Source: a virus
Virus record (IMG/VR): IMGVR_UViG_3300013103_000848
Location: 1 to 11,645 of that record
Strand: one strand, 5' to 3'
DNA: 11,645 nucleotides
A program made the translations under genes and the position numbers. Below, in pieces: positions 1,488-11,597 of this stretch (its first letter is position 1; each line of letters opens with the position of its first letter). The notes below the pieces were generated by a model. It did not search any database and was not told where the DNA came from. It saw nothing but the letters and a program-made list of their open reading frames with translations.

Positions 1488-1675
1488 ACTTAGAACAAAT
1501 AGAAAATCAGTATAGAATACTTGAAGATAGAAGAATCAGATTTAAAACTAAAAATTATAATTTGAGAGAAAGCACAGCATATTTTGAGGGATACACCGAC
1601 GCTATTATTTATGAAAATGAAATCGCAAAATTAAAATTAGAATCAATATTAAAAGAGGATTTGAAAAATGAGTGA
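1484..1675 (+). CDS. Hypothetical protein, 63 aa, predicted helical/coiled-coil
   Basis: It has an ATGA overlap with the upstream ORF and GGGAG 8 nt upstream. Composition is purine-rich and coding-like. Confidence 0.6.
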   Translation: MNLEQIENQYRILEDRRIRFKTKNYNLRESTAYFEGYTDAIIYENEIAKLKLESILKEDLKNE

Positions 1676-1853
1676 ATTACAAGGAGACGCAGGAGACGAA
1701 GAAAGAGTTAAACTAAACTTAATTGAAGCAGCTGCAGAACAAGGAACTTTAAAAAGAACAGAAACTAAAGATGAAATCAGATTTGAGGGAATGATTGTAG
1801 TTAAAGATTTGAAAGGAGGTAAGACAAATGAGGATGGATTTAAAAACACTTGA
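1668..1853 (+). CDS. Hypothetical acidic protein, 61 aa
   Basis: It has an 8-nt ATGAGTGA overlap with the upstream ORF and AGAGGA about 9 nt upstream. Its 3' end overlaps the SD-preceded ORF at 1828 by 26 nt. Confidence 0.5.
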   Translation: MSELQGDAGDEERVKLNLIEAAAEQGTLKRTETKDEIRFEGMIVVKDLKGGKTNEDGFKNT

Positions 1854-1950
1854 AGCAGTAAACGAACTAGTGCATAGACAAAAAGTAGAACCAGATGAGA
1901 TTTTTATAGAGAATGATAAAAGCATTTGTTTAGTATGGAAAAATGAGTAA
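1828..1950 (+). CDS. Hypothetical protein, 40 aa (below the ORF-track cutoff)
   Basis: A strong SD aggaggt (1814-1820) lies 7 nt upstream of the ATG. Translation: MRMDLKTLEAVNELVHRQKVEPDEIFIENDKSICLVWKNE. An 8-nt ATGAGTAA overlap joins it to ORF 1943. Confidence 0.5.
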   Translation: MRMDLKTLEAVNELVHRQKVEPDEIFIENDKSICLVWKNE

Positions 1951-2299
1951 AGTAACAGCAATATGCCAGATGTGCGGGAAGCAGTTTGAATATGATTTAA
2001 AACCCGGCTTTCCAAGAAAATATTGTCCTGAATGTAGTGCTAAAAAGAAAGCAGAATATGAGAGCAGACAGCAAAAAGAAGCACCGGTCCCAGTAGTTAG
2101 GCCGGGTGAGATTGCTAAAAAAGAAGAAGTTAAGAAAGAAATAGCTGAAGATGTTGTCATAAGAAAAGACAAACCGCATTCATATGAATTCGGAAAAGCA
2201 GGAAACAGATTCAAGGTTTATTTTAACACAGCAGAGGAATTAAAAACTTTAATTAAGGAATTGTTAGAAGTTCAGGATGAGATGTTTCCTTTAGAATAA
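1943..2299 (+). CDS. Zinc-ribbon protein, 118 aa (N-terminal CxxC...CxxC finger, Lys/Glu-rich linker, C-terminal domain)
   Basis: It carries CQMCGKQFEY...YCPECS, a four-Cys motif. It is followed by a T7 run. Confidence 0.7.
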   Translation: MSKVTAICQMCGKQFEYDLKPGFPRKYCPECSAKKKAEYESRQQKEAPVPVVRPGEIAKKEEVKKEIAEDVVIRKDKPHSYEFGKAGNRFKVYFNTAEELKTLIKELLEVQDEMFPLE

Positions 2300-2302
2300 T
2301 TA

Positions 2303-2309
2303 TTTTTTT
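2303..2309 (+). terminator. Oligo-T tract (T7) immediately after the stop of ORF 1943..2299; candidate archaeal-type terminator
   Basis: tatttttttg at 2301-2310. Oligo-T tracts are the known archaeal termination signal. Its function here is inferred. Confidence 0.35.
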
Positions 2310-2378
2310 GCCCGAATGTTTGTCGGGTTTCATAGTCAGCGTGCGGGTTGGACTGACAAACCCTTAACGAGACCCGCA
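2310..2378 (+). other. GC-enriched structured intergenic element (multiple mutually exclusive or pseudoknot-compatible stems)
   Basis: Stem cccga (2311-2315)/tcggg (2323-2327). Stem gtcag (2335-2339)/ctgac (2353-2357). Stem tgcgggt (2342-2348)/acccgca (2372-2378). About 56% GC by hand count, in an AT-rich genome. Confidence 0.4.
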
Positions 2379-2391
2379 TTATAATCAAAAA

Positions 2392-2709
2392 ATGAAAAAA
2401 GAAAAAACTTTAAGTGAGAAAAAATGTAATATTCTAACTTTAGAACAATTAGGGGGTATTGGATTATCTTCAAGTGACATTGAGTTAGCAGATGGAACTA
2501 TTTATGGTAAAGAAATTTTTTTTCATCATGGTGAAAATCTTATTTTTAAAAAAGGGTTTTTTGAAGAAGATGTAAAACAAACTTTCAAAAAGATTTTAGA
2601 TGAGATTGAGAAATTAGGAAATATGAGACTATATAGAAGTAAAAGTTGTCAATTATTCAGCAGAAGAATTAAACAAACAATCAAACAAAAAGCAGGAGAT
2701 TTAAAATGA
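2392..2709 (+). CDS. Hypothetical protein, 105 aa
   Basis: ORF-track ORF on the coding strand with no recognisable motif. Its N-terminus MKKEKTLSEK resembles that of the next ORF. Confidence 0.6.
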   Translation: MKKEKTLSEKKCNILTLEQLGGIGLSSSDIELADGTIYGKEIFFHHGENLIFKKGFFEEDVKQTFKKILDEIEKLGNMRLYRSKSCQLFSRRIKQTIKQKAGDLK

Positions 2710-2882
2710 AAAACCAAGAAACTTTAAGTGAGAAAAGTATGACATCTGAAGAAGAATACATCACACCCGAAACAGTGTGGAAAGAAATCTGTAAATTATA
2801 CATTAAATTCACTGATGAACTTGGAGAAAAAATATATGAATTTGATAGGATGATGAAATCTAACAATTCTTCCCAGCAATAA
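2706..2882 (+). CDS. Hypothetical protein, 58 aa (below the ORF-track cutoff)
   Basis: It has an ATGA overlap with the upstream ORF, and AGGAG (2694-2698) lies 7 nt upstream. Translation: MKNQETLSEKSMTSEEEYITPETVWKEICKLYIKFTDELGEKIYEFDRMMKSNNSSQQ. Confidence 0.55.
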   Translation: MKNQETLSEKSMTSEEEYITPETVWKEICKLYIKFTDELGEKIYEFDRMMKSNNSSQQ

Positions 2883-3147
2883 CTTTTTTAACTTTATTTC
2901 TTAAACAACGAGGGCATATCCATTTTTCATCAGGATAAAGCCAAATCAATCCATTTTGATTTTCTGCTGTTGCTTTTCTTAATTCTCTACCGCAAATATC
3001 ACATTTATCAGACAACTCAACAGCAAACTCAACAATGCCTAATCTATCTTTTATTGCATTCTCTAAAATCTCAGAAATATTCACTTCTTTCTCTTTTATC
3101 TTATTATGCAATTCAGAATCTATTGAAGTCATCACCTGTTTTTTCAT
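2860..3147 (-). CDS. Ribbon-helix-helix plus zinc-ribbon transcription regulator candidate, 95 aa; the only minus-strand gene
   Basis: The N-terminus VMTSIDSELHNKIKEKEVNISEILENAIKDRLG fits a CopG/Arc-type RHH pattern. The C-terminus CDICG...CPRC is a four-Cys ribbon. The gene is divergent from the large non-coding region and has its own TATA box. Confidence 0.75.
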   Translation of the reverse strand: MKKQVMTSIDSELHNKIKEKEVNISEILENAIKDRLGIVEFAVELSDKCDICGRELRKATAENQNGLIWLYPDEKWICPRCLRNKVKKVIAGKNC

Positions 3148-3168
3148 ATCAAATAGAAATATATATAC

Positions 3169-3176
3169 TTTATAAA
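3169..3176 (-). promoter_or_regulatory. TATA box (palindromic tttataaa) for the minus-strand regulator gene
   Basis: There are 21 nt between the box and the ATG at 3147 on the minus strand. This matches the spacing class of the + strand promoters. Confidence 0.5.
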
Positions 3177-3226
3177 TATATGTGTTCTGGACAATCTATA
3201 TTTTAAAATTGTCTATCTGGGTTTTG

Positions 3227-3325
3227 ATATATATATATATATGAATATGCATATATATAATAGCCCCCCCACTACGGAGTTATTCTGATTATATATATCT
3301 CTGGAAATATATATATATATATATA
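3227..3325. repeat. Cluster of four (AT)n dinucleotide tracts interrupted by a C7 run; candidate DNA unwinding element
   Basis: (AT)8 at 3227-3242, atatatata at 3251-3259, C7 at 3264-3270, (AT)4 at 3291-3298, and a 19-nt AT alternation at 3307-3325. Confidence 0.9.
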
Positions 3326-3330
3326 AATTC

Positions 3331-3345
3331 GCTTAACCCTTAAGC
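3331..3345. repeat. Short inverted repeat gcttaa-ccc-ttaagc
   Basis: A 6-bp stem with a 3-nt loop, read directly. Confidence 0.6.
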
Positions 3346-3489
3346 CAGGACTTTAAACACCTTTGAAAGCCTCACATAACACTCGGAAGCGTAAATACTA
3401 TTAGATGCTTGACAATTCAAAAAAACTTGATTGCCTATAACTTAAAATTGCCTTTCATTTAAATAATTGTGTTATTACTAGAAAGTGTT

Positions 3490-3505
3490 CCGCTCTCTGG
3501 AGCGG
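3490..3505. repeat. Hairpin ccgctc-tctg-gagcgg
   Basis: A GC-rich 6-bp stem with a 4-nt loop in the gene-free region. Confidence 0.6.
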
Positions 3506-3520
3506 TGCTTTATGGCTTTT

Positions 3521-3535
3521 AGAAAGATTTAAATA
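3521..3535 (+). promoter_or_regulatory. Orphan promoter-like element (agaaaga plus tttaaata) with no ORF downstream
   Basis: It has the same BRE-like purine stretch plus TATA box as the three + strand gene promoters. The 12-mer atttaaataatt occurs at 3467-3478 and 3527-3538. No ATG lies at the expected +1 (about 3558). Confidence 0.4.
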
Positions 3536-3547
3536 ATTCATTCACTT

Positions 3548-3569
3548 GCTTTTTTGCTTGCAAAAAAGC
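3548..3569. repeat. Perfect 9-bp hairpin gcttttttg-cttg-caaaaaagc
   Basis: 3548-3556 pairs with 3561-3569, leaving a 4-nt loop. Confidence 0.8.
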
Positions 3570-3670
3570 CTTCTTCTCATTCCTCTCTTCATCTAAAAGA
3601 CCATAAAGATAAGGGAAATAACAGAAAGAAGAATTGATTATCGGGTGAATTTTGACTTTTTTAGCCAAAA

Positions 3671-3688
3671 TGGGCAAGGTTTTGCCCA
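3671..3688. repeat. Perfect 7-bp hairpin tgggcaa-ggtt-ttgccca
   Basis: 3671-3677 pairs with 3682-3688, leaving a 4-nt loop. Confidence 0.8.
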
Positions 3689-3784
3689 CTCCTCTTCTTT
3701 CGGAGTTCTACCCTCTAATCAATATTGATCATTCTCTAGAATGACTTATTAATTCAAACCAATTCACATCGGTTTATTTCCTAA

Positions 3785-3860
3785 GAACTTCCCCCAACCC
3801 CCTAACCCCCTTCCCCGTGGGAAGGGGGAACTTCCCTCCACCCTCCCCGCCCACCACCCC
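3785..3860. repeat. C-rich (+ strand) / G-rich (- strand) island with two G-quadruplex/i-motif-capable tract clusters, flanked by a 9-nt direct repeat
   Basis: Cluster A: C5-aa-C5-taa-C5-tt-C4 at 3791-3816. Cluster B: C3-t-cc-a-C3-t-C4-g-C3-a-cc-a-C4 at 3834-3860. The 9-mer gaacttccc occurs at 3785-3793 and 3828-3836. Confidence 0.85.
3806..3828. repeat. Perfect 10-bp GC-rich hairpin/dyad cccccttccc-cgt-gggaaggggg
   Basis: 3806-3815 is the exact reverse complement of 3819-3828, with a 3-nt spacer. It is embedded in the C-rich island. Confidence 0.9.
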
Positions 3861-4012
3861 TTTTCTTATTCTTCTTATCTCTTCTTTGCGATTGTTGGAG
3901 TTTTTCTTTTTTTTTTATGTAGGAACCCGCAAAAAAATTTTTTAAAAATATTTTTTCTCTCCGTCATTCTTCAGGGTTCAAAAATATTTCCCAATCCTTA
4001 AATTATCCCCAT

Positions 4013-4029
4013 AGAAAAATCTTTAAATA
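4013..4029 (+). promoter_or_regulatory. Archaeal-type promoter candidate (agaaaaatc plus tttaaata) for the terminase-to-scaffold operon
   Basis: The TATA box lies at 4022-4029, with 19 nt to the terminase ATG at 4049. No SD is present between them. Confidence 0.6.
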
Positions 4030-4048
4030 CTCAGCTACTCTCTTACTT

Positions 4049-5359
4049 ATGAAATATGATATTACCCAGCCATGGAAAACTCTTGACAAATGGCAAAAGG
4101 ACTATATCAATACCCCGCCAGAACAAGACTGCTTTCTTCTAACTGGACGACAATCAGGAAAAACCGCCGCAATGTCCATAAAAATTGTAGAAATGTGTGT
4201 TCACCATTTCAAAAAAGAACAAAATATCTTAATCTGCTCAATCACAGAAAAACAAGCTTATAGAATGCTTGCAAAAGCTCTTGTTTATGCAAAGATAAAA
4301 TATCCAAAATTTGTAATCACAAAAGGCAAAGACAAACCAACCAAACACATAATCAAATTCACAACAGGAGCAGGTATTTACTCCTACGCCGCGGGAGAAT
4401 CAGGCGAAGGATTAAGAGGAGACACAATAAAAAAATTAATGATTGATGAAGGTTCTGGAATGAGCGAAGAATTTTTTGTGGCAACTACCCCTATGTTATC
4501 TGTATCAGGGGGAAGTATGGACATAGCCAGCACTCCAAGAGGAAAATATGACAAAGAAGGAAACGAACTATTTTTTTATAAATGTTCAAAAGATAAAAAT
4601 TTTAAAAAGTTTTATGTCTCTGCTGAGGATTGTCCAAGACACTCAAAAGAATTTCTGCAAAGACAAAAAGAGAGATTTACAAAACTGCAATACGCACAAG
4701 AATATCTGGCACAATTTTTAGATGAAGTTCAATCTTTTTTTGATCTTGACTTAATTAAAAAACTCTGCGTTGAAAAAGTCCCAAAAGAAATAATAACATC
4801 TGGAGATAATTTTATCGGCTGTGATGTTGCCAGAAAAGGAATAGATAAATTCACTTATGAAATCTTTAACAGAACAGGACACAGAGGAAATTACAAATTA
4901 AGACATGTTTTTAATCTCACAACTAACAATATTCCAATTCCAGAAAGCGTAAGAAAAATTATCTCTCTAAATAAATCCTACAACTTTAAAAAAGAATACA
5001 TTGACAGCGGGGGAATGGGAATAGCTGTTTGCGACTTGCTCCGTGAAGATAAAGCAAATAAAAATAAAGTTGTTGAAATAAATAACTCTTCAAGAAGATA
5101 TACAGAAGACGGAGAAAAAAAGAAAACAGGAATTTTAAAAGAGGACTTATATAAAAATCTCGCTGTTCTTATGGAACAAAATAAAATTACTTTTTTGGAT
5201 GATGACGAAGTAAAGAGTTCTTTATCTTCAATCCAATACGAATACAACTCATCAGGACGCTTAATAATCTGGGGTTATAACGACCATATCGCAGAGGGCA
5301 TTGTCAGAGCGGCCTGGTGCATAAAAGACAAAAGTTTAAATATCCTTGCTTTTTGTTAA
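4049..5359 (+). CDS. terL: Terminase large subunit (ATPase plus RNase-H-like nuclease), 436 aa
   Basis: Walker A is GRQSGKT (aa 33-39, nt 4145-4165) and Walker B-like is KKLMIDEGS. Nuclease-domain acidic motifs are FIGCDVARKGIDKFT, YIDSGGMGIAVCDLL and YNDHIAEGIVRAAW. The size and motif order are typical of TerL. Confidence 0.9.
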   Translation: MKYDITQPWKTLDKWQKDYINTPPEQDCFLLTGRQSGKTAAMSIKIVEMCVHHFKKEQNILICSITEKQAYRMLAKALVYAKIKYPKFVITKGKDKPTKHIIKFTTGAGIYSYAAGESGEGLRGDTIKKLMIDEGSGMSEEFFVATTPMLSVSGGSMDIASTPRGKYDKEGNELFFYKCSKDKNFKKFYVSAEDCPRHSKEFLQRQKERFTKLQYAQEYLAQFLDEVQSFFDLDLIKKLCVEKVPKEIITSGDNFIGCDVARKGIDKFTYEIFNRTGHRGNYKLRHVFNLTTNNIPIPESVRKIISLNKSYNFKKEYIDSGGMGIAVCDLLREDKANKNKVVEINNSSRRYTEDGEKKKTGILKEDLYKNLAVLMEQNKITFLDDDEVKSSLSSIQYEYNSSGRLIIWGYNDHIAEGIVRAAWCIKDKSLNILAFC

Positions 5360-5437
5360 TAACATGTTAAGAAAAATCTATATAGCATACTTAAAGATGA
5401 TAATTAAACTCTTGAGCGGCAAAGCAGCAGTAATATA

Positions 5438-5803
5438 ATGACAGACACAGGAATATTTGCAACAACAGAAGAAGTCCAGAGAAAAGCTGGAGCAAACGCA
5501 AACGCAACAGCGAAGTCAGAAGCATACATTAATGACTTCATAGCACAAGCAGAAAGTACGATTAATGTTATGTGCAGATATAATTTTTCTGATAAGTTCT
5601 CAACTTTAAACACAGATGTAAAACAAATTCTCAAAGAAGTTGCTTCAAACCTCGCTGCAATCTATGTAATTAACTATGATATGTCTGGTTTTACTTCAAG
5701 AACTGAAGCAGAAAACATGATTAATATTCTCAGAGATGCCTCATTAAGAGGACTTTCAATATTAAGAAATCAACAAGCGGTGACTTTTATAAATGGCGCA
5801 TGA
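5438..5803 (+). CDS. Possible head-tail adaptor/connector (gp6-like), 121 aa
   Basis: Its size and N-terminal pattern (TTEEVQRKAG...SEAYINDFIAQAESTIN) resemble gp6/gp15-type head completion proteins. This call rests on position and pattern only. Confidence 0.45.
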   Translation: MTDTGIFATTEEVQRKAGANANATAKSEAYINDFIAQAESTINVMCRYNFSDKFSTLNTDVKQILKEVASNLAAIYVINYDMSGFTSRTEAENMINILRDASLRGLSILRNQQAVTFINGA

Positions 5804-6221
5804 TTTTAAAAGATTTCCAGAACTGACAAACTCACAAATGCAATTCTATTATTTTGACAGCCCACACCAGCAAATCACAGAAAGTTTTAGGGCAAGAGTT
5901 GTCAAAGTCATAGATGGCGACACAATAAGGGTAACCTGCGATTTTAGGGATTTTGCTTTTCCAATCCGACTGATAGAAATAAACGCCCCTGAAATGAACG
6001 AAGGCGGACAGGAAAGTAAATCATGGCTTGAAAATCAAATAATAGGCGAAGATATAGATGTAATTGTAGACCCAAACTTTAGAGTGGGAAAATGGGGGCG
6101 ATTATTAGGGAGGATTATCAGCAGAGGACTTGACATGGGAGAGGCAAGCATGCGTTTAGGTTTCTCAACAAAATTCGGAGAAAGAAATTTTGAACAGGAG
6201 ATGAAAAGAATATGGTATTAA
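5793..6221 (+). CDS. Staphylococcal nuclease (SNase/thermonuclease) homolog, 142 aa
   Basis: VVKVIDGDTIRV ... IRLIEINAPE ... WGRLLGRI matches the SNase DGDT / RL-x-x-[DN]-A-P-E / GRxL motif order. Asn replaces the usual Asp of the D-[AT]-P-E motif. Confidence 0.8.
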   Translation: MAHDFKRFPELTNSQMQFYYFDSPHQQITESFRARVVKVIDGDTIRVTCDFRDFAFPIRLIEINAPEMNEGGQESKSWLENQIIGEDIDVIVDPNFRVGKWGRLLGRIISRGLDMGEASMRLGFSTKFGERNFEQEMKRIWY

Positions 6222-6628
6222 ATTTTGGGTTTTTAAAAAGAAGTGTTGAAGAAGCATTATCTCCAAGCAAAGACGCATTAACTAATGACTGGCAATGGAT
6301 AGTAGATAATGGAACTTTAAAATTACTGGATGGGGAGGTAACTAATGGAACAACCACACTTTACACCGTGCCTGCAGGAAAAATATTTTATATGATTTCT
6401 ATGAATTTATCTTCAAAAGAAACAAATTCTTCAACAGGAGCGGTAAACGGAAAAGCTGCGGGAATTGTTTTTATTGCGAATGTTCTTCAAGCGAATGATA
6501 CATTTAATTATTCTGGCTCTTTTCCTATTCCTATAAAACTAACAGCAGGACAAACTATTCAAGTTATATCATATGGAGCAAATATTTATGGAGCATTAAG
6601 AGTCCAAGGATACGAGGTAAGTGCATGA
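6212..6628 (+). CDS. Hypothetical beta-rich protein, 138 aa (possible small structural or receptor-binding protein)
   Basis: ORF-track ORF with AGGAG (6196-6200) upstream and a 10-nt overlap with the nuclease gene. The alternating hydrophobic pattern (TLYTVPAGKIFYMISMNL, GQTIQVISYG, GALRVQGYEV) suggests a beta-sandwich or cupin-like fold. Confidence 0.6.
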   Translation: MVLNFGFLKRSVEEALSPSKDALTNDWQWIVDNGTLKLLDGEVTNGTTTLYTVPAGKIFYMISMNLSSKETNSSTGAVNGKAAGIVFIANVLQANDTFNYSGSFPIPIKLTAGQTIQVISYGANIYGALRVQGYEVSA

Positions 6629-6646
6629 AAATTAAAAATATAGAAA

Positions 6647-7741
6647 ATGACAGAAAATAAAATAGATAGTGCAATTGCAAGCGACTTAACAAACGCTATG
6701 ACAGACTTCTCAGTGGATAGTGCAACAACCGACGCTAACACAAACCAAAAAGAAACCTCATGGATGGACACAAATTTTCCAAAATATCTTGGATACTACA
6801 AAGATGAGAAAACTCCTGAACTAACTGCAGTCATTGACGCCAAGGCAACATGGACTATCGGAAAGGGCTATAAAGCAGATGAAGAGACAACAATGCTTTT
6901 AGATACAATCAAAGGAAACGGAAAAGATACATTCAACACAATATTAGAGAACGCAATGAGAGTAATGCTGTTGGGCGGAAACTTCTACGCTCATATTATA
7001 AGAGATGATGAAGGGAATCTTATTAATCTAAAACCATTAGACCCGTCGGTGATGAAACATATTTTTGGAAGAGATGGAATGCTCATCAGGTTTGAACAAG
7101 TTTCCAAATTTCCAGGAAACAAACCGAAGAAGTTTGAGCCAGAAGAAATATTTTATCTTTCAAGAAATCGGATAGCTGATGAGATGCACGGGACAGGAAT
7201 AGCCCAGAAATTAAAATTAATTATTGATATGAAGAATGAGGCAATGGCAGACCAGAGAAAAGCGTTACACTGGAATGTCATACCCCGTTGGAAATTCAAG
7301 TTAAAAACAGACGACCCGACAGAAATCGCAGCTTACAAAGCAAAGCAGGACGCAGCAACAGGAACAGGAGAAAATATCTATGAGCCGTTTGATGTTTCTG
7401 AAAGCGAATTAATTTCAGTAGCCCCGAACGCAACATTAAACCCTATGGCATGGATACAATATTTAGACAATTTGTTTTATGAAATGGCAGGAGTCCCTAA
7501 AATCATTCTCGGGGGTTCAGGAGAATTTACAGAGGCATCAGCAAAAATTGCTTATCTTGCTTTTCAGCAGGGAGTTGAGGAAGAACAACTTTTTATAGAA
7601 GAACAGGTTCTGGCACAATTAAATCTTTTGATAGAATTAGAGTTTCCAGCGTCACTGGAGAACGACCTTTTATCTGATAATAAAAAAGATGGCGCTCAAA
7701 ATATAGATGCAAGTGAAACTACTGCAGGGGAGGGACAATGA
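6647..7741 (+). CDS. Portal protein, 364 aa
   Basis: Its size and position lie between TerL and the scaffold/capsid genes. The segments TFNTILENAMRVMLLGGNFYAHIIRDDEGNLINLKPLDP and later helix-rich regions resemble Phage_portal family architecture. An in-frame stop lies immediately upstream of the ATG. Confidence 0.7.
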   Translation: MTENKIDSAIASDLTNAMTDFSVDSATTDANTNQKETSWMDTNFPKYLGYYKDEKTPELTAVIDAKATWTIGKGYKADEETTMLLDTIKGNGKDTFNTILENAMRVMLLGGNFYAHIIRDDEGNLINLKPLDPSVMKHIFGRDGMLIRFEQVSKFPGNKPKKFEPEEIFYLSRNRIADEMHGTGIAQKLKLIIDMKNEAMADQRKALHWNVIPRWKFKLKTDDPTEIAAYKAKQDAATGTGENIYEPFDVSESELISVAPNATLNPMAWIQYLDNLFYEMAGVPKIILGGSGEFTEASAKIAYLAFQQGVEEEQLFIEEQVLAQLNLLIELEFPASLENDLLSDNKKDGAQNIDASETTAGEGQ

Positions 7742-8910
7742 CCGTTTATTCAACATATATAGGAAAAGGAAAGGACAGAAAGATTTTAACAAAAAGAAAA
7801 AAAAAGAACACTGGGAAAGAGTTAAGAGATAGAATAGAAAGAGCCAAAGCAGAGGGCTGGGACCCTGACCCTAAAAAAGACACACAAAAAGAAAGAAAAA
7901 GAGAAACAGAAAGAACCCAACCAACAGTCAATATCAACAAAAGAGAAACAGAAAGACCCCCAAGAGTAGAATCTAAAACCGCTCCTGTTGTTAAATTAAC
8001 TCCAAAACCAAAAGAAAAAACAGGACTGGCAAAGTTAAGAGAAGAAGATTCTATCAAAGGAGGACTTATCAGAGCTGCGACAGACTGGAGAACAACAGTC
8101 GCTCTCGTCGGAACACTCGCTACTCTTGGAATTGGCTCAGCAGTTATTGCAGGAGCAGAAGCATCAGCAAGCGCAGGAGCAACAGCAGTAATAACAAGAA
8201 CAGGAACCGCTATCTCAGGAGGAATGAAAGGCGTTACTATGACAACACAAAGAGCATTTATCGGGAGAGCCGCAACTTCAGGAGTTAACAAAATCTTTTA
8301 TGCAGTCAGACCAGTCGCCACAAGATTTGCGACAAATCCAAAATCAACAGCTTTAACAACAAAATTATTTTTAAAGGCAGGGTTAAATACTGGAACAGCA
8401 GGGATTTTATTGGGAGCAATCGGCTCTTATCCATTTGCAGGGTTCATCAAAGAAGAAGCACTACAAACTTTAGGTTTTGCTTTCTCATCAGCAGAGAAGA
8501 TAAATGATATTGAAGGAATGGAAATGGTTACAGAAGAAATAGATGAAATCTTAAATGTTGCTCCAAGTATTTTAGATAAAATCCCGTATGTAAATGTTTT
8601 AAAGCAATTAAACGAATTTTTTAAAGCTGTTGCAGTGAAACAAATTCAGAACAAAAGAACCATAGAAGAAGCAAAAAGAGATATAGAAGGTGAAGGAGAA
8701 TTTGAAACTTCATTTGAAAAATCAGCGAGGGAAAGTGCAGAAAGAGAAGAAAAACAAAGAAAAGAAAGTGAAGAATATTACTCAAGAATTGAAGAAGAAA
8801 ACCGTAAAAAAGAGTTAGAAGAAATGGCTTGGAAATCAGAATATTTTAATTTGATAAGAGAGAAGAAATTTAAGGAAGCAGAAGAACTCCTTAAGGAGAA
8901 AATGAAATAA
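7738..8910 (+). CDS. Tripartite virion-associated protein candidate, 390 aa: basic N-terminus, Gly/Ala/Thr-rich hydrophobic centre, Glu/Lys coiled-coil C-terminus
   Basis: It has an ATGA overlap with the portal gene and a strong SD ggggaggg at 7727-7735. KRETER occurs twice, from an 18-nt direct repeat at 7897-7914 and 7939-7956. Hydrophobic stretches are TTVALVGTLATLGIGSAVIAGA and GTAGILLGAIGSYPFAGFI. No protease motif was recognised. Confidence 0.7.
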   Translation: MTVYSTYIGKGKDRKILTKRKKKNTGKELRDRIERAKAEGWDPDPKKDTQKERKRETERTQPTVNINKRETERPPRVESKTAPVVKLTPKPKEKTGLAKLREEDSIKGGLIRAATDWRTTVALVGTLATLGIGSAVIAGAEASASAGATAVITRTGTAISGGMKGVTMTTQRAFIGRAATSGVNKIFYAVRPVATRFATNPKSTALTTKLFLKAGLNTGTAGILLGAIGSYPFAGFIKEEALQTLGFAFSSAEKINDIEGMEMVTEEIDEILNVAPSILDKIPYVNVLKQLNEFFKAVAVKQIQNKRTIEEAKRDIEGEGEFETSFEKSARESAEREEKQRKESEEYYSRIEEENRKKELEEMAWKSEYFNLIREKKFKEAEELLKEKMK

Positions 8911-9086
8911 TGACATCAAAAAAAAAAGTGGATTGGAAGGTGCTGTGTACAGGATTAGTTTGCATAACCGCCTTAGAAGCTTTTGCCCTAAGTTTAGGTT
9001 TCAACGGGACAATGCTAAAAACCGTTTTGGTTATTATAGCATTAGCAATCGGAATATCAATCCCTACACCGACGATAAAACACTGA
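8910..9086 (+). CDS. Small membrane protein with two predicted TM helices, 58 aa (below the ORF-track cutoff)
   Basis: It has a TAATG overlap, and AAGGAG (8893-8898) lies upstream. Translation: MTSKKKVDWKVLCTGLVCITALEAFALSLGFNGTMLKTVLVIIALAIGISIPTPTIKH. Confidence 0.55.
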   Translation: MTSKKKVDWKVLCTGLVCITALEAFALSLGFNGTMLKTVLVIIALAIGISIPTPTIKH

Positions 9087-9095
9087 AATATTAAA

Positions 9096-9164
9096 ATGGA
9101 ACTCTGGGAGTTAATCATCTGGTTAATAATCGCAGGAGTAGTCGTAGTTGCGATTTTATACTGA
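9096..9164 (+). CDS. Possible 22-aa single-TM peptide (MELWELIIWLIIAGVVVVAILY)
   Basis: It fills the gap between two genes on the coding strand and is strongly hydrophobic. It has no SD and is very short. Confidence 0.3.
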   Translation: MELWELIIWLIIAGVVVVAILY

Positions 9165-9179
9165 AAGGAGGTAAATAAA

Positions 9180-9521
9180 ATGAGTGAAGAACCACAAGAA
9201 GAAACTAAGAGGAAAGAAGTTCAAGAAGGAACGCAGGAAAAGGAAGTTCAGGGAAAAGATAATTCTTCAGACAGGATTTCCGACGGAGTGGCGACAACAA
9301 CACCGCTTATTGAAAACGCCCGTGAGGAAAGAGAAAAGCTGGAAAAAGTCGTTAAAGAACTCAAAGCTGAGAATGACAGACGAGAGTTAATAATGGCAAA
9401 GCAAGCATTAGGCGGACGAAGTGAAGCAGGACAAGAGTTAGTGAAGAAAGAAGAAACTGACAAAGAATATTCTGAAAGAATAGACAGGGAAATCCGAGAG
9501 GGAAAAACAGAATTTAATTAA
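9180..9521 (+). CDS. Scaffolding-protein candidate, 113 aa, highly charged and helical
   Basis: The best SD in the window (aggaggt, 9166-9172) lies 7 nt upstream. The protein is Glu/Lys/Arg-rich with coiled-coil character (REEREKLEKVVKELKAENDRRE). It lies just upstream of the decoration and capsid genes. Confidence 0.55.
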   Translation: MSEEPQEETKRKEVQEGTQEKEVQGKDNSSDRISDGVATTTPLIENAREEREKLEKVVKELKAENDRRELIMAKQALGGRSEAGQELVKKEETDKEYSERIDREIREGKTEFN

Positions 9522-9522
9522 G

Positions 9523-9693
9523 ATGGTAAAATCAAAGGATGGAAAAATTGAAGTTATCTCAAGAGAAGAGGATTATCTTAGAAAGGCATTGGAAAGAACA
9601 AAGGATTTAATCTTTCAATCAGAACAAAATCTTATCATTAATAAGGAGATGGTTAGGATTCTTGAGAAAAAAATAAAAGAATTTTCAAAGTAA
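9523..9693 (+). CDS. Hypothetical helical protein, 56 aa (below the ORF-track cutoff)
   Basis: Hand translation: MVKSKDGKIEVISREEDYLRKALERTKDLIFQSEQNLIINKEMVRILEKKIKEFSK. It starts 2 nt after the upstream stop and fills otherwise empty coding-strand space. Confidence 0.45.
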   Translation: MVKSKDGKIEVISREEDYLRKALERTKDLIFQSEQNLIINKEMVRILEKKIKEFSK

Positions 9694-9705
9694 TCGGTAT
9701 ACCGA
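9694..9705. promoter_or_regulatory. Perfect 12-nt palindrome TCGGTATACCGA just upstream of the capsid-operon promoter; candidate regulator site
   Basis: Read directly. It ends 5 nt before the BRE-like agaaaca at 9711. Confidence 0.45.
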
Positions 9706-9710
9706 ATAAC

Positions 9711-9725
9711 AGAAACATTTAAATA
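9711..9725 (+). promoter_or_regulatory. Archaeal-type promoter candidate (agaaaca plus tttaaata) for the decoration/capsid/fibre operon
   Basis: The TATA box lies at 9718-9725, with 22 nt to the ATG at 9748. The intervening sequence is T-rich and has no SD. Confidence 0.6.
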
Positions 9726-9747
9726 CTTTATTTTTTATTATTTATCT

Positions 9748-10158
9748 ATGGCAGACGAAGCAATCCTAAGGCTTGAAACAAGACAACCAATTAGTTTCAA
9801 TAAAGCCTCTGCAACTGCATTTGAAAAGGGTGCTTTTGTAGATTTAAATGATGATTTAACAGCTGTCGCTGCAACAGCAGACGGGCATGTTGGCGGAATT
9901 GTCGCTGTTGAAGAAGTGGCAAACCAGCACAGCACTGTGGCTGTTTATCGTGAGGGCTTTTTCTATGGAACAGCGTCGGCAGCAATTACTATCGGACAAA
10001 CTCTTGCTTTAACAGGCTCAGGGAATAAACTTAAACCATCTACTGCCTCAGATGTAGCAAGCAAAACCGTAGGCATAGCATTAGAAGCAGCAAGCGGTAA
10101 TGGCGAGCAATTCTTATTTGAACTAAAACCAGGCGTGGGAGTTAACGCATTCGCATAA
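9748..10158 (+). CDS. Head decoration / capsid cement protein candidate (DUF2190-like), 136 aa
   Basis: It is a Gly/Ala/Val-rich beta protein (GAFVDLNDD, GHVGGIVAVEE, VAVYREGFFYG, GQTLALTGSGNKL, VGIALEAASGNGEQFLFEL). It lies immediately upstream of, and is translationally coupled (TAATG) to, the capsid gene, the usual arrangement for DUF2190-type decoration proteins. Confidence 0.6.
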   Translation: MADEAILRLETRQPISFNKASATAFEKGAFVDLNDDLTAVAATADGHVGGIVAVEEVANQHSTVAVYREGFFYGTASAAITIGQTLALTGSGNKLKPSTASDVASKTVGIALEAASGNGEQFLFELKPGVGVNAFA

Positions 10159-11024
10159 TGGCAGATACAGCAGGACAAGCACTAATAAGAGGGATTAACC
10201 TTGATAAGAAAGCAAGAAACTATCAGAATGAAGAATCTATTTTTTACAAGGAAGTTAATGTTAGTGTATCCTCATCAAGAGAAATACGATATTATCAAAA
10301 AACATCAGGATATTTAACTGCAACTTCTCCAGCGAGCATTGTAATCGCAGAGGGTGCTTTGCCTTTTGTTTTAGAAACTTCTTGGACAAGAAACACAGCT
10401 TACACAAAAAAGTATTCTGTTGATAGCCCTTTAATTACTGTGGAAGATGAGAAAGACAGCGAAGTTAGGGTATTTATGGATAATCTTGAGGAAATTACTG
10501 GAGCTGTTGTTAATGAAAGAGAGGGAGACATCTGGGATGTAGCAACAGAAGACCAGACACCAGTTAATATTAATTCTGTAACTTCTACTGCTGCGTGGGA
10601 TGCAGCCTCAGGGCAGGACCCTATGGAAGATGTAGCTGAAGCAGTGCAAAAGATTAGAGAACAAACTAAAAGGAAAGTTGTAAATCCTAAATTATATGTT
10701 TCTGCAAAAGGAGAAAAAGATTTAAAGGTTTGGATTACTTCAATGAAAGGAAGTTCTTGGAGTGAATTAGCTTCTAAAGTAGTTGTGGATGGAGTTTTGA
10801 CACGATTTGGCGGATGTTCTGTTGTAGTTTCTGAAAATGTAACTGCTGATTATGCTCTTGTTGCGGACTTGAAAAAATCTACTGAATACTGGGAGTTCTT
10901 TCCTTTGAAAACTGCAATAATCACAGAAGAATTAATCGGAAGAAAAATAAGAGTGATGACAAACGGAATTGCAGTTTTAACAAGACCAAAATTCAACTGC
11001 TTGATTACAAACACAGAGGCATAA
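10158..11024 (+). CDS. Major capsid protein, HK97-fold candidate, 288 aa
   Basis: It follows the scaffold and decoration genes. The segment TAAWDAASGQDPMEDVAEAVQKIREQT...NPKLYVSAKGEKDL resembles the conserved W-x-(n)-P-[IM]-x-D and following helix region of HK97/lambda-E-type capsid proteins. The call was made by eye. Confidence 0.75.
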   Translation: MADTAGQALIRGINLDKKARNYQNEESIFYKEVNVSVSSSREIRYYQKTSGYLTATSPASIVIAEGALPFVLETSWTRNTAYTKKYSVDSPLITVEDEKDSEVRVFMDNLEEITGAVVNEREGDIWDVATEDQTPVNINSVTSTAAWDAASGQDPMEDVAEAVQKIREQTKRKVVNPKLYVSAKGEKDLKVWITSMKGSSWSELASKVVVDGVLTRFGGCSVVVSENVTADYALVADLKKSTEYWEFFPLKTAIITEELIGRKIRVMTNGIAVLTRPKFNCLITNTEA

Positions 11025-11025
11025 A

Positions 11026-11277
11026 ATGACACTTGAAAACCTTAAAAAACTATACAAGCATTATTCTTTTTTATCTAAAGGAAACTTTACAGCTGAGGAT
11101 TTTTATAAAGAATTTGGAGATGGCGAAGATGCAGGTTTTTCTCATGTGGGAAAACTTCCAGCTGACAGAAGAAAATTAATCATTGCAGACGCACAAAGAA
11201 ATCTTAAAGAACTTCTTAAAAAATATCCTGAGTTAAAAGAAGAAGAAAAACCAATTAAATCTAAGGTGAAGAAATAA
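11026..11277 (+). CDS. Hypothetical protein, 83 aa, Lys/Glu-rich C-terminus
   Basis: ORF-track ORF with AGAGG 6 nt upstream. It lies directly after the capsid gene and may be a head completion protein; that role is unsupported. Confidence 0.6.
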   Translation: MTLENLKKLYKHYSFLSKGNFTAEDFYKEFGDGEDAGFSHVGKLPADRRKLIIADAQRNLKELLKKYPELKEEEKPIKSKVKK

Positions 11278-11435
11278 TGGAGAGTGTGCATGATAAGAAA
11301 TTAGGCACATCTGTGGCAGAAGCGACTTTTGTTGAAAACTCTGGCGGAACTGCAGTAAATGTTGATAGCACATTTGGGGGTTATACTCTTCAGCAAGTTG
11401 TTAAAGCTTTACAAATAGCAGGGGTGCTTGAATAA
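11277..11435 (+). CDS. Hypothetical protein, 52 aa (below the ORF-track cutoff)
   Basis: It has a TAATG overlap, and an SD aaggtga (11263-11269) lies 7 nt upstream. Translation: MESVHDKKLGTSVAEATFVENSGGTAVNVDSTFGGYTLQQVVKALQIAGVLE. Confidence 0.55.
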   Translation: MESVHDKKLGTSVAEATFVENSGGTAVNVDSTFGGYTLQQVVKALQIAGVLE

Positions 11436-11597
11436 ATGGCGGCTGGAGATGTGACTGTTCAGATTGTGGAAAATGCAACTGCGAGTTCAGTGGATACTGC
11501 TATCACAGCAATGAGAAACGGTGCTAATGATAAATGGTTAATGACTTCTATAAATAATGGACAGGATGTTTTGATTGTAAATATTGAGGAAGCATAA
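11436..11597 (+). CDS. 53-aa protein homologous to both termini of the LamG protein (candidate anchor module)
   Basis: It starts directly after the upstream stop, with GGGGTG 9 nt upstream. Translation: MAAGDVTVQIVENATASSVDTAITAMRNGANDKWLMTSINNGQDVLIVNIEEA. See the finding on the nested LamG insertion. Confidence 0.6.
   Translation: MAAGDVTVQIVENATASSVDTAITAMRNGANDKWLMTSINNGQDVLIVNIEEA

What the first reader, a model, noticed from the sequence alone, without database searches (positions are those of the whole stretch)
4049..11597. Head-only miniature HK97-lineage genome with no recognisable tail, replication or integration genes
In 11.5 kb I recognise TerL, portal, scaffold-like, decoration-like and major capsid genes, a gp6-like adaptor candidate, an SNase and a LamG lectin protein. 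I recognise no tail tube, sheath, tape measure, nozzle or baseplate gene. I also find no prohead protease, small terminase, DNA polymerase, primase, helicase, Rep or integrase. The remaining coding capacity is about 17 ORFs of 22-140 aa plus one 390-aa protein. The smallest characterised tailed viruses I know of (roughly 11-20 kb) carry a protein-primed polymerase and clear tail genes. Capsid-forming satellites in bacteria (cf-PICI type) carry head and packaging modules without tails, but they are integrated elements. A free, circular, head-module-only element with archaeal-type promoters does not fit either class. It could be a minimal archaeal virus with a highly reduced tail built from the small ORFs. 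It could also be a capsid-forming satellite that borrows tails and replication functions from a helper or the host.
Basis: partly seen in the sequence, partly recalled or inferred. Interest (0 to 1): 0.85.

Follow-up and report, generated by a model that had tools for sequence, protein, structure and literature searches.

The report
Tiny archaeal head-and-fibre virus genome
This is the complete 11.5-kb genome of an uncultured archaeal virus from a large, undescribed family whose members build a phage-type head and carry fibre-like proteins, yet have no tail tube, DNA polymerase or integrase, which puts them among the smallest known head-tail-lineage viruses.

Summary
The gene calls are confirmed. 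The window is a closed 11,540-bp genome (exact 105-bp end overlap, and a 99.9% identical independent assembly). It encodes TerL, portal, scaffold-like, cement and HK97-type capsid proteins, an SNase and a LamG protein. Profile searches find no tube, sheath, tape measure, baseplate, protease, TerS, polymerase, primase, helicase, Rep or integrase.

It is neither a fragment nor an insert. About 190 related contigs never exceed about 13.6 kb, except one chimera and two concatemers. At least 12 close on themselves at 10.2-13.2 kb.

The host is archaeal. In 68 of 93 distinct relatives, a BRE+TATA box sits 28-32 nt (65 of 68 at 29-30) before the ATG of the cement-capsid operon.

"Head-only" overstates the case. 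ORF 6212-6628 lies in a hypervariable slot before the portal gene. Its model is a jelly-roll knob on a flexible N-terminus. In relatives the same slot holds a beta-helix spike-like protein, and 24 of 44 long relatives add a 300-650-aa protein with tail-fibre homology.

Best reading: an autonomous, host-replicated mini-virus with a stub or no tail. A tail-borrowing satellite is not excluded. I found no published description.

The parts
1..105 (.). Terminal overlap, identical to 11541-11645. It closes the genome at 11,540 bp.
   Evidence: Exact 105-bp match. The independent assembly L154 wraps around the same junction.
59..838 (+). LamG/concanavalin-type lectin protein (259 aa). It looks like an s53-like small module with a LamG domain inserted. 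It is a candidate adhesion or receptor-binding protein.
   Evidence: PF13385, 5e-30; phrog_8510 'virion structural protein', 1e-17. Its C-terminal 35 aa are 46% identical to the 53-aa protein at 11436-11597, and both start MAxGDVT. Present in 21 of 44 long relatives.
838..1002 (+). 54-aa protein of unknown function.
   Evidence: Found in 3 loci only. No family hit.
999..1172 (+). s57: a conserved 42-57-aa peptide. In relatives it lies just before the big fibre gene or is fused to the C-terminus of LamG-type proteins. Inferred to be a fibre or lectin anchor.
   Evidence: Present in 40 of 44 long relatives. Fusions in L007, L039 and L041. No family hit.
1187..1200 (+). BRE/TATA-like promoter of the early gene block. 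Its TATA starts 32 nt before the ATG at 1225.
1225..2882 (+). Early or accessory block of small ORFs (24-118 aa). It includes a zinc-ribbon protein (1943-2299) and two paralogues (2392-2709 and 2706-2882). No replication protein is recognisable.
   Evidence: Only weak zinc-ribbon hits. The region has almost no nucleotide similarity to relatives. The paralogue starts repeat each other (D8).
2860..3147 (-). Ribbon-helix-helix (CcdA/Arc-like) plus zinc-ribbon protein, 95 aa. Probably a regulator or a DNA-recognition factor. In L002 and L004 its homologue lies directly upstream of TerL.
   Evidence: PF07362, 1e-4; phrog_3180 'Arc-like repressor', 5e-4. Synteny. Its own TATA box starts 29 nt upstream.
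3148..4048 (.). 901-nt ORF-free region. It contains (TA)n palindromes at 3222-3330, a perfect BRE/TATA at 3522-3535 with no ORF behind it, a C-rich hairpin at 3806-3814/3820-3828, and a T-run at 3900-3917. It is a candidate origin and/or pac region, and possibly encodes a non-coding RNA.
   Evidence: 3556-3920 folds with z = -3.08. No Rfam match. Most complete relatives have one ORF-free region of more than 500 nt.
4016..4029 (+). BRE/TATA promoter of the TerL-to-scaffold operon. Its TATA starts 27 nt before the ATG, so the mRNA is probably leaderless.
4049..5359 (+). Large terminase, T4-type ATPase plus nuclease.
   Evidence: PF03237, 3.4e-11; phrog_2, 1.4e-33. The best isolate match is the haloarchaeal virus HGTV-1, 24.6% identity, 7e-23.
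5438..5803 (+). 121-aa core protein, tentatively a gp6/Ad1-type head-tail adaptor.
   Evidence: Present in 44 of 44 long relatives. Three sub-threshold hits to the same family. Only 1 of 39 members hits PF05135, and hhalign against HK97 gp6 is negative.
5793..6221 (+). Staphylococcal-nuclease-like endonuclease.
   Evidence: phrog_452, 1.8e-12; PF00565, 5e-4. Present in 17 of 44 long relatives.
6212..6628 (+). 138-aa protein with a flexible N-terminus, a short helix and an 8-stranded jelly-roll knob. It occupies the hypervariable slot before the portal gene. It is a candidate receptor-binding fibre or knob.
   Evidence: AF2 pLDDT 81. Foldseek matches virus protrusions, trimeric cement proteins, C1q/TNF heads and phage fibre tips, at TM about 0.5. 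The slot holds 58 distinct proteins of 125-390 aa, including the L035 beta-helix (PF13229, 3e-17). 6251-6500 has no nucleotide similarity to any relative.
6647..7741 (+). Portal protein.
   Evidence: PF04860, 2e-10; phrog_12, 1.4e-13; TIGR01537, 1.3e-7.
7738..8910 (+). 390-aa protein with a basic N-terminus, a hydrophobic Gly/Ala-rich segment (about residues 118-140) and a confident all-alpha C-terminal half. Inferred to be an internal or ejection ('pilot') protein; a scaffold-like or portal-associated role is also possible.
   Evidence: 188 homologues. AF2 gives pLDDT above 85 for residues 200-389. No fold match in the PDB, best E = 0.83. No family or PDB profile hit. Hydropathy and charge.
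8910..9086 (+). 58-aa protein with two hydrophobic helices. It is a small membrane protein, possibly holin-like or virion-associated.
   Evidence: Hydropathy. Found in 12 of 44 long relatives. No family hit.
9180..9521 (+). 113-aa acidic, Glu/Lys-rich, scaffold-like protein.
   Evidence: Found in 43 of 44 long relatives, always upstream of the capsid gene. No family hit. The function is inferred from position and composition.
9523..9693 (+). s56: a conserved 56-aa protein of unknown role.
   Evidence: Found in 38 of 44 long relatives. No family hit.
9712..9725 (+). BRE/TATA promoter of the cement-capsid operon (GAAACATTTAAATA). Its TATA starts 30 nt before the ATG.
   Evidence: Conserved in 68 of 93 distinct relatives, 65 of them at exactly -29 or -30, against a 1.3% background.
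9748..10158 (+). Capsid cement/decoration protein.
   Evidence: PF09956, 7.4e-9, above the cut-off. Present in 44 of 44 long relatives.
10158..11024 (+). Major capsid protein, HK97 type, 288 aa.
   Evidence: phrog_1650, 1.4e-8. Homologues carry PF25209 Phage_capsid_4. 446 homologues were found. The profile finds only 212 of 1.84 billion representative proteins.
11026..11277 (+). s83: an 83-aa protein with a basic C-terminus. It is a candidate head-completion or connector protein.
   Evidence: Found in 33 of 44 long relatives. No family or PDB hit.
11277..11435 (+). s52: a 52-aa protein of unknown function.
   Evidence: Found in 9 loci. No hit.
11436..11597 (+). s53: a 53-aa module (MAAGDVTV...IEEA), paralogous to the ends of the LamG protein.
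   Evidence: Found in 24 loci. Alignment to the LamG protein.

Best explanation
The window is the complete 11.5-kb dsDNA genome of an autonomous, mostly non-integrating archaeal virus of the HK97/portal/terminase lineage (Caudoviricetes-like). It belongs to a large uncultured family with genomes of 10.2-13.2 kb.

Shown here:
- The genome is closed.
- The family never occurs inside larger contigs.
- Three or four BRE/TATA promoters with mostly leaderless first genes organise the genome. One block is early or accessory (1225-2882). One operon runs from TerL to the scaffold gene (4049-9693). One operon runs from the cement and capsid genes across the junction to 1172.

Inferred mechanism:
- A 113-aa scaffold and the portal nucleate a very small capsid. 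A published size model puts the average T=3 genome at 11.8 kb. The capsid is built from the 288-aa capsid protein, stabilised by the cement protein, and matured without a protease.
- The T4-type TerL fills it by a headful mechanism. This would explain why the genome assembles as a circle.
- The portal vertex is closed by the 121-aa adaptor-like protein and small conserved proteins (s83, s57, s53).
- Instead of a tube, the vertex carries short fibres or knobs: the 138-aa jelly-roll protein and the LamG lectin here, and beta-helix spikes or 300-650-aa fibres in relatives. These proteins determine host range.
- The 390-aa basic, hydrophobic, helical protein is packaged and ejected to make the DNA conduit.
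- Replication relies on the host replisome, recruited to the 901-nt ORF-free region with the help of small zinc-ribbon and RHH proteins.
For: Closure and independence:
- Searches show closure and a second assembly.
- Of about 190 related contigs, none exceeds about 13.6 kb except L091, L152 and L153.
- L091 is a chimera with two TerL and two portal genes.
- L152 and L153 are head-to-tail repeats with units of 13,152 and about 11,900 bp.
- Twelve contigs carry terminal overlaps, closing at 10.2-12.8 kb.

Core gene set:
- 33-44 of 44 long relatives carry each of the core genes.

Archaeal promoters:
- The BRE+TATA sits 28-32 nt before the ATG (65 of 68 at -29/-30) in 68 of 93 relatives, against a 1.3% background.
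- The window has 11 motif matches against 2.6 expected; none of 200 shuffles reached 11.
- Hjc-like resolvases occur in 12 relatives.
- The nearest TerL among isolates is a haloarchaeal virus.

Own host-recognition genes:
- The slot before the portal gene is hypervariable, with 58 distinct proteins. About half share an M[AVPGTS]L start; many read M(A/V)LxFG.
- The nucleotide similarity gap at 6251-6500 falls between conserved flanks.
- The jelly-roll knob model has pLDDT 81.
- L035 carries a beta-helix in this slot, with tail-collar and spike PHROG hits.
- A fibre family occurs in 24 of 44 relatives, with tblastn hits to annotated tail fibres at 1e-13 to 1e-6.
- The LamG protein hits virion and tail-fibre PHROGs.

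Non-integrating:
- Only one integrase was found in about 150 loci.

Size model:
- PMC7762592.
Against: - No tail tube, nozzle or needle homologue was found in any family member.
- The adaptor assignment is sub-threshold.
- The window itself lacks the large fibre present in 24 of 44 relatives.
- The knob fold also matches capsid cement and protrusion proteins. It and the LamG protein could therefore decorate the head rather than the portal vertex.
- The 390-aa protein has no structural relative, so its role rests on composition and gene position only.
- No replication gene or origin has been demonstrated. An element with no replicase and no tail is also what a satellite would look like.
- No particle, host or transcript data exist.
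Confidence: 0.58

Rival explanations
1. This is a capsid-forming satellite of an unknown larger archaeal tailed virus. It makes and fills its own small heads, ending in an adaptor ring. It then takes tails, and perhaps replication functions, from a helper. In function it would resemble bacterial cf-PICIs, but it would be extrachromosomal.
For: - No tube, sheath, tape-measure, nozzle or baseplate gene is recognisable in the window or in any relative.
- No replicase is recognisable.
- A conserved protein with sub-threshold similarity to gp6/Ad1 adaptors, which form the tail-docking interface, is present in 44 of 44 long relatives.
Against: - The family invests in its own hypervariable fibre, spike and lectin genes, including tail-fibre homologues. 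These would be redundant if helper tails supplied host recognition.
- There is no integrase, no primase-Rep and no helper-sensing module; 1 of about 150 loci has an integrase.
- None of about 190 contigs sits in a host or helper genome.
- The capsid, portal and 390-aa families have no close relatives in larger viruses. The MCP profile finds only 212 of 1.84 billion representatives, nearly all 280-300 aa. The portal has no match among 50,697 phage records.
Confidence: 0.22
2. This is a truly tailless HK97-lineage virus. The fibre, knob and lectin proteins decorate the capsid, and the portal is merely plugged. The DNA conduit is built only at infection by the ejected 390-aa protein, by analogy with the phiX174 H-protein tube.
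For: - The knob model's best PDB matches are capsid protrusion and trimeric cement proteins.
- The 390-aa protein has a basic N-terminus, a hydrophobic segment and long confident helices.
- No nozzle or tube gene is found.
- The adaptor assignment is weak.
Against: - Relatives' fibres resemble tail fibres, and the spike-like beta-helix has tail-collar and spike PHROG hits.
- In the known portal-bearing prokaryotic viruses (tailed phages and archaeal tailed viruses) some tail is attached to the portal (established knowledge).
- The evidence is by analogy only.
Confidence: 0.15
3. This is a fragment of a larger virus, or a prophage or island inside a cellular genome, or a phage of CPR bacteria.
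For: - Two related contigs are binned in MAGs: a 3-kb contig in 'archaeon GMC4.concoct.133_sub' and a 9.5-kb contig in 'Patescibacteria AMOR_Bin_147'.
Against: - Both binned contigs are short, virus-only pieces.
- The genome closes, with independent assemblies and a family-wide size ceiling.
- The family-wide BRE/TATA promoter with a leaderless first gene is archaeal, not bacterial.
Confidence: 0.03

Closest known systems
Smallest isolated podoviruses (Salmonella phage astrithr, 11.6 kb; Mycoplasma virus P1, 11.7 kb; phi29-like phages)
   Same: They have the same genome size class and the same predicted T=3-range capsid (PMC7762592). They also have a terminase, a portal/connector and a major head protein, and a short tail or none.
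   Different: Astrithr spends 2.1 kb on a DNA polymerase, has an endolysin, and has only 15 genes. The window has 27 ORFs, with no polymerase or lysin. It has a T4-type TerL, a cement protein and archaeal promoters. Neither its capsid protein nor its portal has a tblastn match in 50,697 phage records at E < 1e-3.
Capsid-forming PICIs (cf-PICIs) of bacteria
   Same: They encode head and packaging modules and adaptor-type proteins, have no tail tube genes, and are about 10-15 kb.
   Different: cf-PICIs are integrated, have an integrase and a replication module, encode TerS and usually a protease, and carry no receptor-binding proteins (recalled from the literature; see 10.1101/2025.02.11.637232, listed). 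This family is extrachromosomal and archaeal, and it carries fibre, spike and lectin genes.
Archaeal tailed viruses (haloarchaeal HGTV-1 and relatives; Asgard verdandiviruses of about 19.5 kb and up)
   Same: They have archaeal hosts, an HK97-type capsid, a portal and a TerL. The window's TerL is closest to HGTV-1 among isolates (24.6% identity, 7e-23).
   Different: Those viruses are from about 1.5 to more than 10 times larger and have recognisable tail modules; many also carry replication genes. Similarity is limited to TerL. Verda V2 is 19.5 kb (cited in 10.1101/2025.06.18.659913).
'Twilight-zone' mini HK97 entities of the human gut (about 8.9 kb; Aguilar et al., bioRxiv 2025.06.18.659913)
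   Same: They are small DTR genomes with HK97-fold capsid genes and no tail genes.
   Different: Those entities lack a portal and a terminase, encode an integrase and RepA or a helicase, and come from the gut. This family has a portal and TerL, no Rep or integrase, and comes from sediments, the subsurface and marine samples.

Membership tests
Caudoviricetes / Duplodnaviria (HK97-lineage tailed viruses) | HK97-fold major capsid protein | tested here: met
   phrog_1650 'major head protein', 1.4e-8. Homologues carry PF25209 Phage_capsid_4. The evidence is from sequence profiles only; no capsid model was built.
Caudoviricetes / Duplodnaviria (HK97-lineage tailed viruses) | Portal protein and large terminase (ATPase plus nuclease) | tested here: met
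   PF04860 and PF03237 both score above their cut-offs. phrog_12 and phrog_2 also match.
Caudoviricetes / Duplodnaviria (HK97-lineage tailed viruses) | A tail (tube or nozzle, with or without sheath, tape measure and baseplate) | tested here: not met
   No such hit in the window or in relatives. The 390-aa model has no fold match. Only fibre, spike and knob-type proteins were found. Divergent stub-tail proteins could escape detection.
Head-tail adaptor Ad1 (HK97 gp6 / SPP1 gp15 / YqbG family) | Profile match above the family cut-off, or the fold | tested here: inconclusive
   PF05135 scores 21.0 bits against a cut-off of 21.2; phrog_137, 0.048; YqbG, 0.035. Only 1 of 39 members matches. hhalign against HK97 gp6 is negative. 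The PDB profile search is empty.
Capsid-forming PICI-type satellites | Integrated in the host chromosome, with an integrase | tested here: not met
   No integrase in the window. One integrase in about 150 related loci. No contig has cellular flanks.
Capsid-forming PICI-type satellites | Own head and packaging genes but no tail genes | tested here: inconclusive
   The head and packaging genes are present. Tube-type tail genes are absent. Fibre and spike genes are present in the family.
Capsid-forming PICI-type satellites | Dependence on a helper virus for tails and induction | not testable with these tools
   This needs co-infection experiments or co-occurrence analysis across samples.
phi29-like / astrithr-like minimal podoviruses | Protein-primed family B DNA polymerase (and terminal protein) | tested here: not met
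   No polymerase hit in any window ORF. Astrithr has a 709-aa polymerase.
Archaeal viruses (host domain) | BRE+TATA promoters at the archaeal spacing, with leaderless first genes | tested here: met
   68 of 93 relatives have TTTAWAWA (65 of them at -29/-30), preceded by (C/A)GAAA. The window sites are at 1187, 3522, 4016 and 9712.

The most novel reading that the evidence does not exclude
These are portal-bearing HK97 viruses with no pre-formed tail tube at all, in a predicted T=3 capsid. The portal vertex carries only an adaptor ring with exchangeable fibres and knobs, and the DNA channel is made at infection by the ejected 390-aa basic, hydrophobic, coiled-coil protein. Replication is wholly outsourced to the archaeal host. 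If so, this would be the smallest head-tail-lineage virus genome plan found in this comparison (10.2 kb, against 11.6 kb for the smallest isolates), and it would fill the 'missing small tailed phage' gap.
Probability: 0.25. Interest if true: 0.9.

Novelty: new variant of a known kind. Interest (0 to 1): 0.72.

Why it matters
The smallest isolated tailed viruses are about 11.6 kb and carry their own polymerase. T=3 tailed capsids have been predicted but not seen (PMC7762592).

This family matters for four reasons:
- Its closed genomes run down to 10.2 kb.
- It is archaeal.
- It occurs in deep-sea sediment (Loki's Castle), deep-sea sulfide deposits, groundwater and Tara Oceans data.
- It has no replicase and no tube-type tail.

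It therefore probes the lower size limit of the HK97/portal/terminase design. It shows how little is needed for a DNA-delivery device. It also bears on whether archaeal tailed viruses can depend fully on the host for replication.

If it is instead a satellite, it would be the first HK97-type satellite in Archaea. Only pSSVi and pSSVx, which are satellites of spindle viruses, had been described before that 2025 preprint, which itself proposes further spindle-virus satellites (10.1101/2025.02.15.638363).

The compact, conserved head module would also make a good target for structural work.

Tried and rejected
- Profile searches of the adaptor-like, s83, 390-aa and fibre N-terminus families against PDB sequences found nothing significant.
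- hhalign of the adaptor-like family against HK97 gp6, and of s83 against HK97 gp7, was negative. Both were single-sequence targets, so the test is weak.
- Foldseek of the 390-aa model against the PDB gave a best E of 0.83.
- tblastn of the capsid and portal proteins against 50,697 phage records gave no match.
- A single-protein MCP scan of IMG/VR found nothing. The alignment-based scan worked.
- I tried to find larger viruses sharing the adaptor or portal with the search for related loci.
- Rfam on the window returned only a chance snoRNA hit.
- Eight full-text literature queries, plus close reading of the five most relevant of the papers they returned, found no description of this family.
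- The contigs longer than 13.6 kb were examined as possible larger genomes or integrated copies. They were rejected as one chimera and two concatemers.
- A host in the CPR bacteria, suggested by one MAG bin, was rejected on promoter evidence.

Full report
**1. What is in the window**

The two ends of the window are identical over 105 bp (1-105 = 11541-11645), so the unit is 11,540 bp. A contig from another ENA sample, L154 (11,981 bp), is 99.92% identical and wraps the same junction with a 441-bp overlap. G+C is about 35%, and there is no tRNA.

Twenty-seven ORFs fill the genome, apart from one 901-nt ORF-free region (3148-4048).

- TerL, 4049-5359: PF03237, 3.4e-11; phrog_2, 1.4e-33.
- Portal, 6647-7741: PF04860, 2e-10, above the cut-off; TIGR01537, 1.3e-7.
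- Cement/decoration protein, 9748-10158: PF09956, 7.4e-9, above the cut-off.
- Major capsid protein, 10158-11024: phrog_1650, 1.4e-8. Its homologues carry PF25209 Phage_capsid_4.
- SNase-like nuclease, 5793-6221: phrog_452, 1.8e-12.
- LamG lectin protein, 59-838: PF13385, 5e-30.

The 'gp6-like adaptor' (5438-5803) is less secure:
- Three libraries give sub-threshold hits to the same family: PF05135 at 21.0 bits against a cut-off of 21.2, phrog_137 at 0.048, and YqbG at 0.035.
- Only 1 of 39 family members matches PF05135.
- hhalign against HK97 gp6 is negative.

No ORF matches a tube, sheath, tape measure, nozzle, baseplate, prohead protease, small terminase, polymerase, primase, helicase, Rep or integrase at E < 0.1 in Pfam, PHROGs or NCBIfam.

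**2. It is a complete genome of a large family, not a fragment or an insert**

The capsid protein has 446 homologues in the 5.8-billion-protein collection. The longest contigs carrying them cluster at 11.4-13.0 kb. Alignment-based scans returned 63 IMG/VR loci, 80 of 124 JGI/NCBI metagenome loci, and 2 MAG-binned contigs.

Twelve contigs have terminal overlaps and close at 10.2-12.8 kb.

The only contigs above about 13.6 kb are artefacts:
- L091 (16.3 kb) carries two TerL and two portal genes, so it is a chimera.
- The 22.6-kb contig behind L152 repeats itself exactly at an offset of 13,152 bp.
- The 15.8-kb contig behind L153 starts a second portal gene about 11.9 kb after the first.

No contig has cellular flanks. 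A profile of the capsid family finds only 212 of 1.84 billion representative proteins, and nearly all full-length hits are 280-300 aa. The family is therefore sharply delimited.

The identifiable sources are Loki's Castle deep-sea sediment (SDBS-SDBV, LAZR01/LCGC14), deep-sea sulfide deposits (PRJDB5792), a Hainich groundwater sample and Tara data.

**3. The host is archaeal**

In 68 of 93 distinct relatives, the cement-capsid operon is preceded by TTTAWAWA. The first T lies at -29 or -30 from the ATG in 65 of those 68. The motif is immediately preceded by (C/A)GAAA(G/C)A. This is a BRE+TATA promoter at archaeal spacing with a leaderless first gene. The same motif occurs in 1.3% of random windows.

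In the window, the BRE/TATA pattern occurs 11 times against 2.6 expected; none of 200 shuffles reached 11. Its positions include:
- 1187-1200, before the early block.
- 4016-4029, before TerL.
- 9712-9725, before the cement gene.
- 3522-3535, inside the ORF-free region.

Genes inside operons have GGAGG-like ribosome-binding sites.

Supporting evidence:
- Hjc-like resolvases occur in 12 relatives.
- The best isolate match of TerL is the haloarchaeal virus HGTV-1.

The 'Patescibacteria' bin is therefore most likely a binning artefact.

**4. The family plan, and why 'head-only' is too strong**

Among 44 loci of at least 10 kb, gene presence is as follows:

| Gene | Present in |
|---|---|
| Adaptor-like protein | 44 |
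| Cement protein | 44 |
| Capsid protein | 44 |
| Portal | 43 |
| Scaffold-like protein | 43 |
| TerL | 42 |
| s57 peptide | 40 |
| s56 | 38 |
| s83 | 33 |
| Large fibre | 24 |
| LamG protein | 21 |

Between the adaptor-like gene and the portal gene there is always a slot. It holds 58 distinct proteins of 125-390 aa. About half of them share an M[AVPGTS]L start; many read M(A/V)LxFG. Their C-terminal domains are unrelated to one another.

In L035 this slot holds a right-handed beta-helix (PF13229, 3e-17) with tail-collar and tail-spike PHROG hits. In L034 it holds a repeat fibre ending in the same 'YTVPGG' domain as the window's protein.

The window's member of this slot is ORF 6212-6628:
- Its AlphaFold model (pLDDT 81) has a disordered N-terminus, one helix and an 8-stranded jelly roll.
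- The best structural matches are virus protrusions, trimeric cement proteins, C1q/TNF-type heads and phage fibre tips, at TM about 0.5.
- At the nucleotide level, 6251-6500 has no similarity to any relative, while the flanking SNase and portal genes are conserved. This is the pattern expected of a host-range determinant.

Twenty-four of 44 long relatives also carry a 300-650-aa protein after the s57 peptide:
- It has a basic N-terminus, a conserved IPNHSG...NKKYVDD motif and variable distal parts.
- The L001 copy matches annotated tail fibres of cyanophages and a Pseudomonas phage at 1e-13 to 1e-6.
- L057's protein matches phrog_5795 'tail protein' at 1e-8.
- The window and its closest complete relative, L002, lack this large fibre.

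The LamG protein looks like an s53-type module with a LamG domain inserted. In three relatives, LamG-type proteins are instead fused to the s57 peptide. These small modules therefore behave as anchors for exchangeable adhesion domains.

**5. The 390-aa protein**

It belongs to a family of at least 188 proteins that always follow the portal gene.

It has a strongly basic N-terminus (+9 in the first 30 residues) and a hydrophobic Gly/Ala-rich segment at about residues 118-140. Its C-terminal half is confidently predicted as all-alpha, with helices of 34 and 50 residues.

It has no fold relative in the PDB (best E = 0.83) and no profile hit. It is therefore not a recognisable tube, nozzle or tape-measure protein. 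Its role as an internal or ejection protein is inferred from composition and position only.

**6. Replication, integration and packaging**

No replication protein is recognisable in the window. None was recognisable among the early-region proteins of relatives that I scanned.

Accessory genes in relatives:
- HNH endonucleases beside TerL, in 11 loci.
- Hjc-like resolvases, in 12 loci.
- A 106-176-aa family of unknown function, with one 414-aa outlier, in 21 loci. It is absent from the window.
- One tyrosine integrase, in L051 (PF00589, 1e-17). It is the only integrase in about 150 loci.

The window's RHH plus zinc-ribbon protein (2860-3147, minus strand) has homologues directly upstream of TerL in L002 and L004. 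It is a candidate DNA-recognition partner or regulator.

The T4-type TerL and the circular assemblies fit headful packaging of permuted DNA. The physical ends are untested.

**7. Comparison with what is known**

The smallest isolates, astrithr (11.6 kb) and Mycoplasma P1 (11.7 kb), are podoviruses. Astrithr carries a 709-aa polymerase and an endolysin (PMC7762592). The published capsid model predicts an average of 11.8 kb (range 8.1-17.1) for T=3 tailed capsids, which is where this family sits.

cf-PICIs share the head-plus-adaptor, no-tail plan. They differ in being integrated bacterial islands with an integrase and a replication module.

The gut 'twilight' HK97 entities lack a portal and a terminase and are temperate.

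Before the 2025 preprint, only the spindle-virus satellites pSSVi and pSSVx had been described in Archaea; the preprint itself proposes further spindle-virus satellites.

I found no paper describing this family.

**8. Verdict**

It is weakened for the adaptor. It is corrected for 'head-only'.

My estimates for the three main readings:
- About 0.58: an autonomous archaeal mini-virus with a stub tail or no tail, its own exchangeable fibres and knobs, and host-dependent replication.
- About 0.22: a tail-borrowing satellite.
- About 0.15: a truly tailless particle.

The fragment, insert and bacterial-host readings are effectively refuted.

This is a new, very reduced variant of the head-tail virus kind. 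It is of clear interest for the lower size limit of that design.

Noticed in passing
window 3522-3920: A perfect BRE/TATA (GAAAGATTTAAATA, 3522-3535) lies inside the 901-nt ORF-free region with no ORF behind it. The stretch 3556-3920 folds better than shuffles (z = -3.08) and ends in a T-run (3900-3917). This could be a non-coding RNA. There is no Rfam match.
   Followed up: partly
window 3222-3330 and 3806-3828: (TA)n-rich palindromes (arms of up to 40 nt) and a C-rich hairpin (CCCCCTTCC / GGAAGGGGG) lie upstream of TerL. They are candidate origin-unwinding or pac elements. Most complete relatives also have one ORF-free region of more than 500 nt.
   Followed up: partly
L025:2539-2613, L035:1792-1859(-), L045:7836-7910, L034:9104-9193, L036:10950-11037: Several 10-12-kb relatives carry tRNA genes that pass the Rfam gathering score. 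Three are tRNA-Met. L034 and L036 (plus L118, identical to L034) have 88-90-nt tRNAs with an insertion in the anticodon region, which looks like an archaeal-type intron. In L025 a BRE/TATA lies about 40 nt upstream of the tRNA.
   Followed up: partly
L051:8254-8901: This is the only tyrosine integrase (PF00589, 1e-17) found among about 150 related loci. At least one member may be temperate.
   Followed up: partly
window 59-838 vs 11436-11597; L007, L039, L041: The LamG protein starts and ends like the 53-aa protein, so the domain appears to be inserted into a small module. In three relatives, LamG-type proteins are instead fused to the conserved s57 peptide. Both patterns suggest modular anchors for adhesion domains.
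   Followed up: partly
L002:1260-2516, L071:4301-5452, L047:4280-5788 and others; window 6212: Post-portal proteins of several relatives end in LNFGLL or LNFGIL, while the proteins in the slot before the portal begin M(A/V)LNFG. This may be a shared docking motif. It is unexplained.
   Followed up: no
L029:3114-3545 and 51 other loci: A conserved protein of about 145 aa lies between the scaffold and cement genes in 52 loci. It has no family hit and is absent from the window.
   Followed up: no
L029:10418-10711, L004:3669-3953 and relatives: HNH endonucleases lie next to TerL in 11 loci. Hjc-like (archaeal Holliday-junction resolvase-like) proteins occur in 12 loci. The window has neither, but it has the SNase.
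   Followed up: partly
L091 (SDBT01008902.1, 16,330 bp): This public contig joins parts of two related genomes. It carries two TerL genes (one on each strand) and two portal genes, so it is an assembly chimera.
   Followed up: yes
window 2392-2709 and 2706-2882: Two adjacent early ORFs share a 34-nt start (91% identical). They resemble the 'MSLSDKI...' small proteins of relatives, so they are tandem paralogues of unknown function.
   Followed up: no
L070 (JAOZNG010000178.1) and L071 (JANBVK010000006.1): Virus-only contigs of this family are binned into an 'archaeon' MAG and a 'Patescibacteria' MAG in GTDB genomes. The second is probably contamination of the bin.
   Followed up: partly
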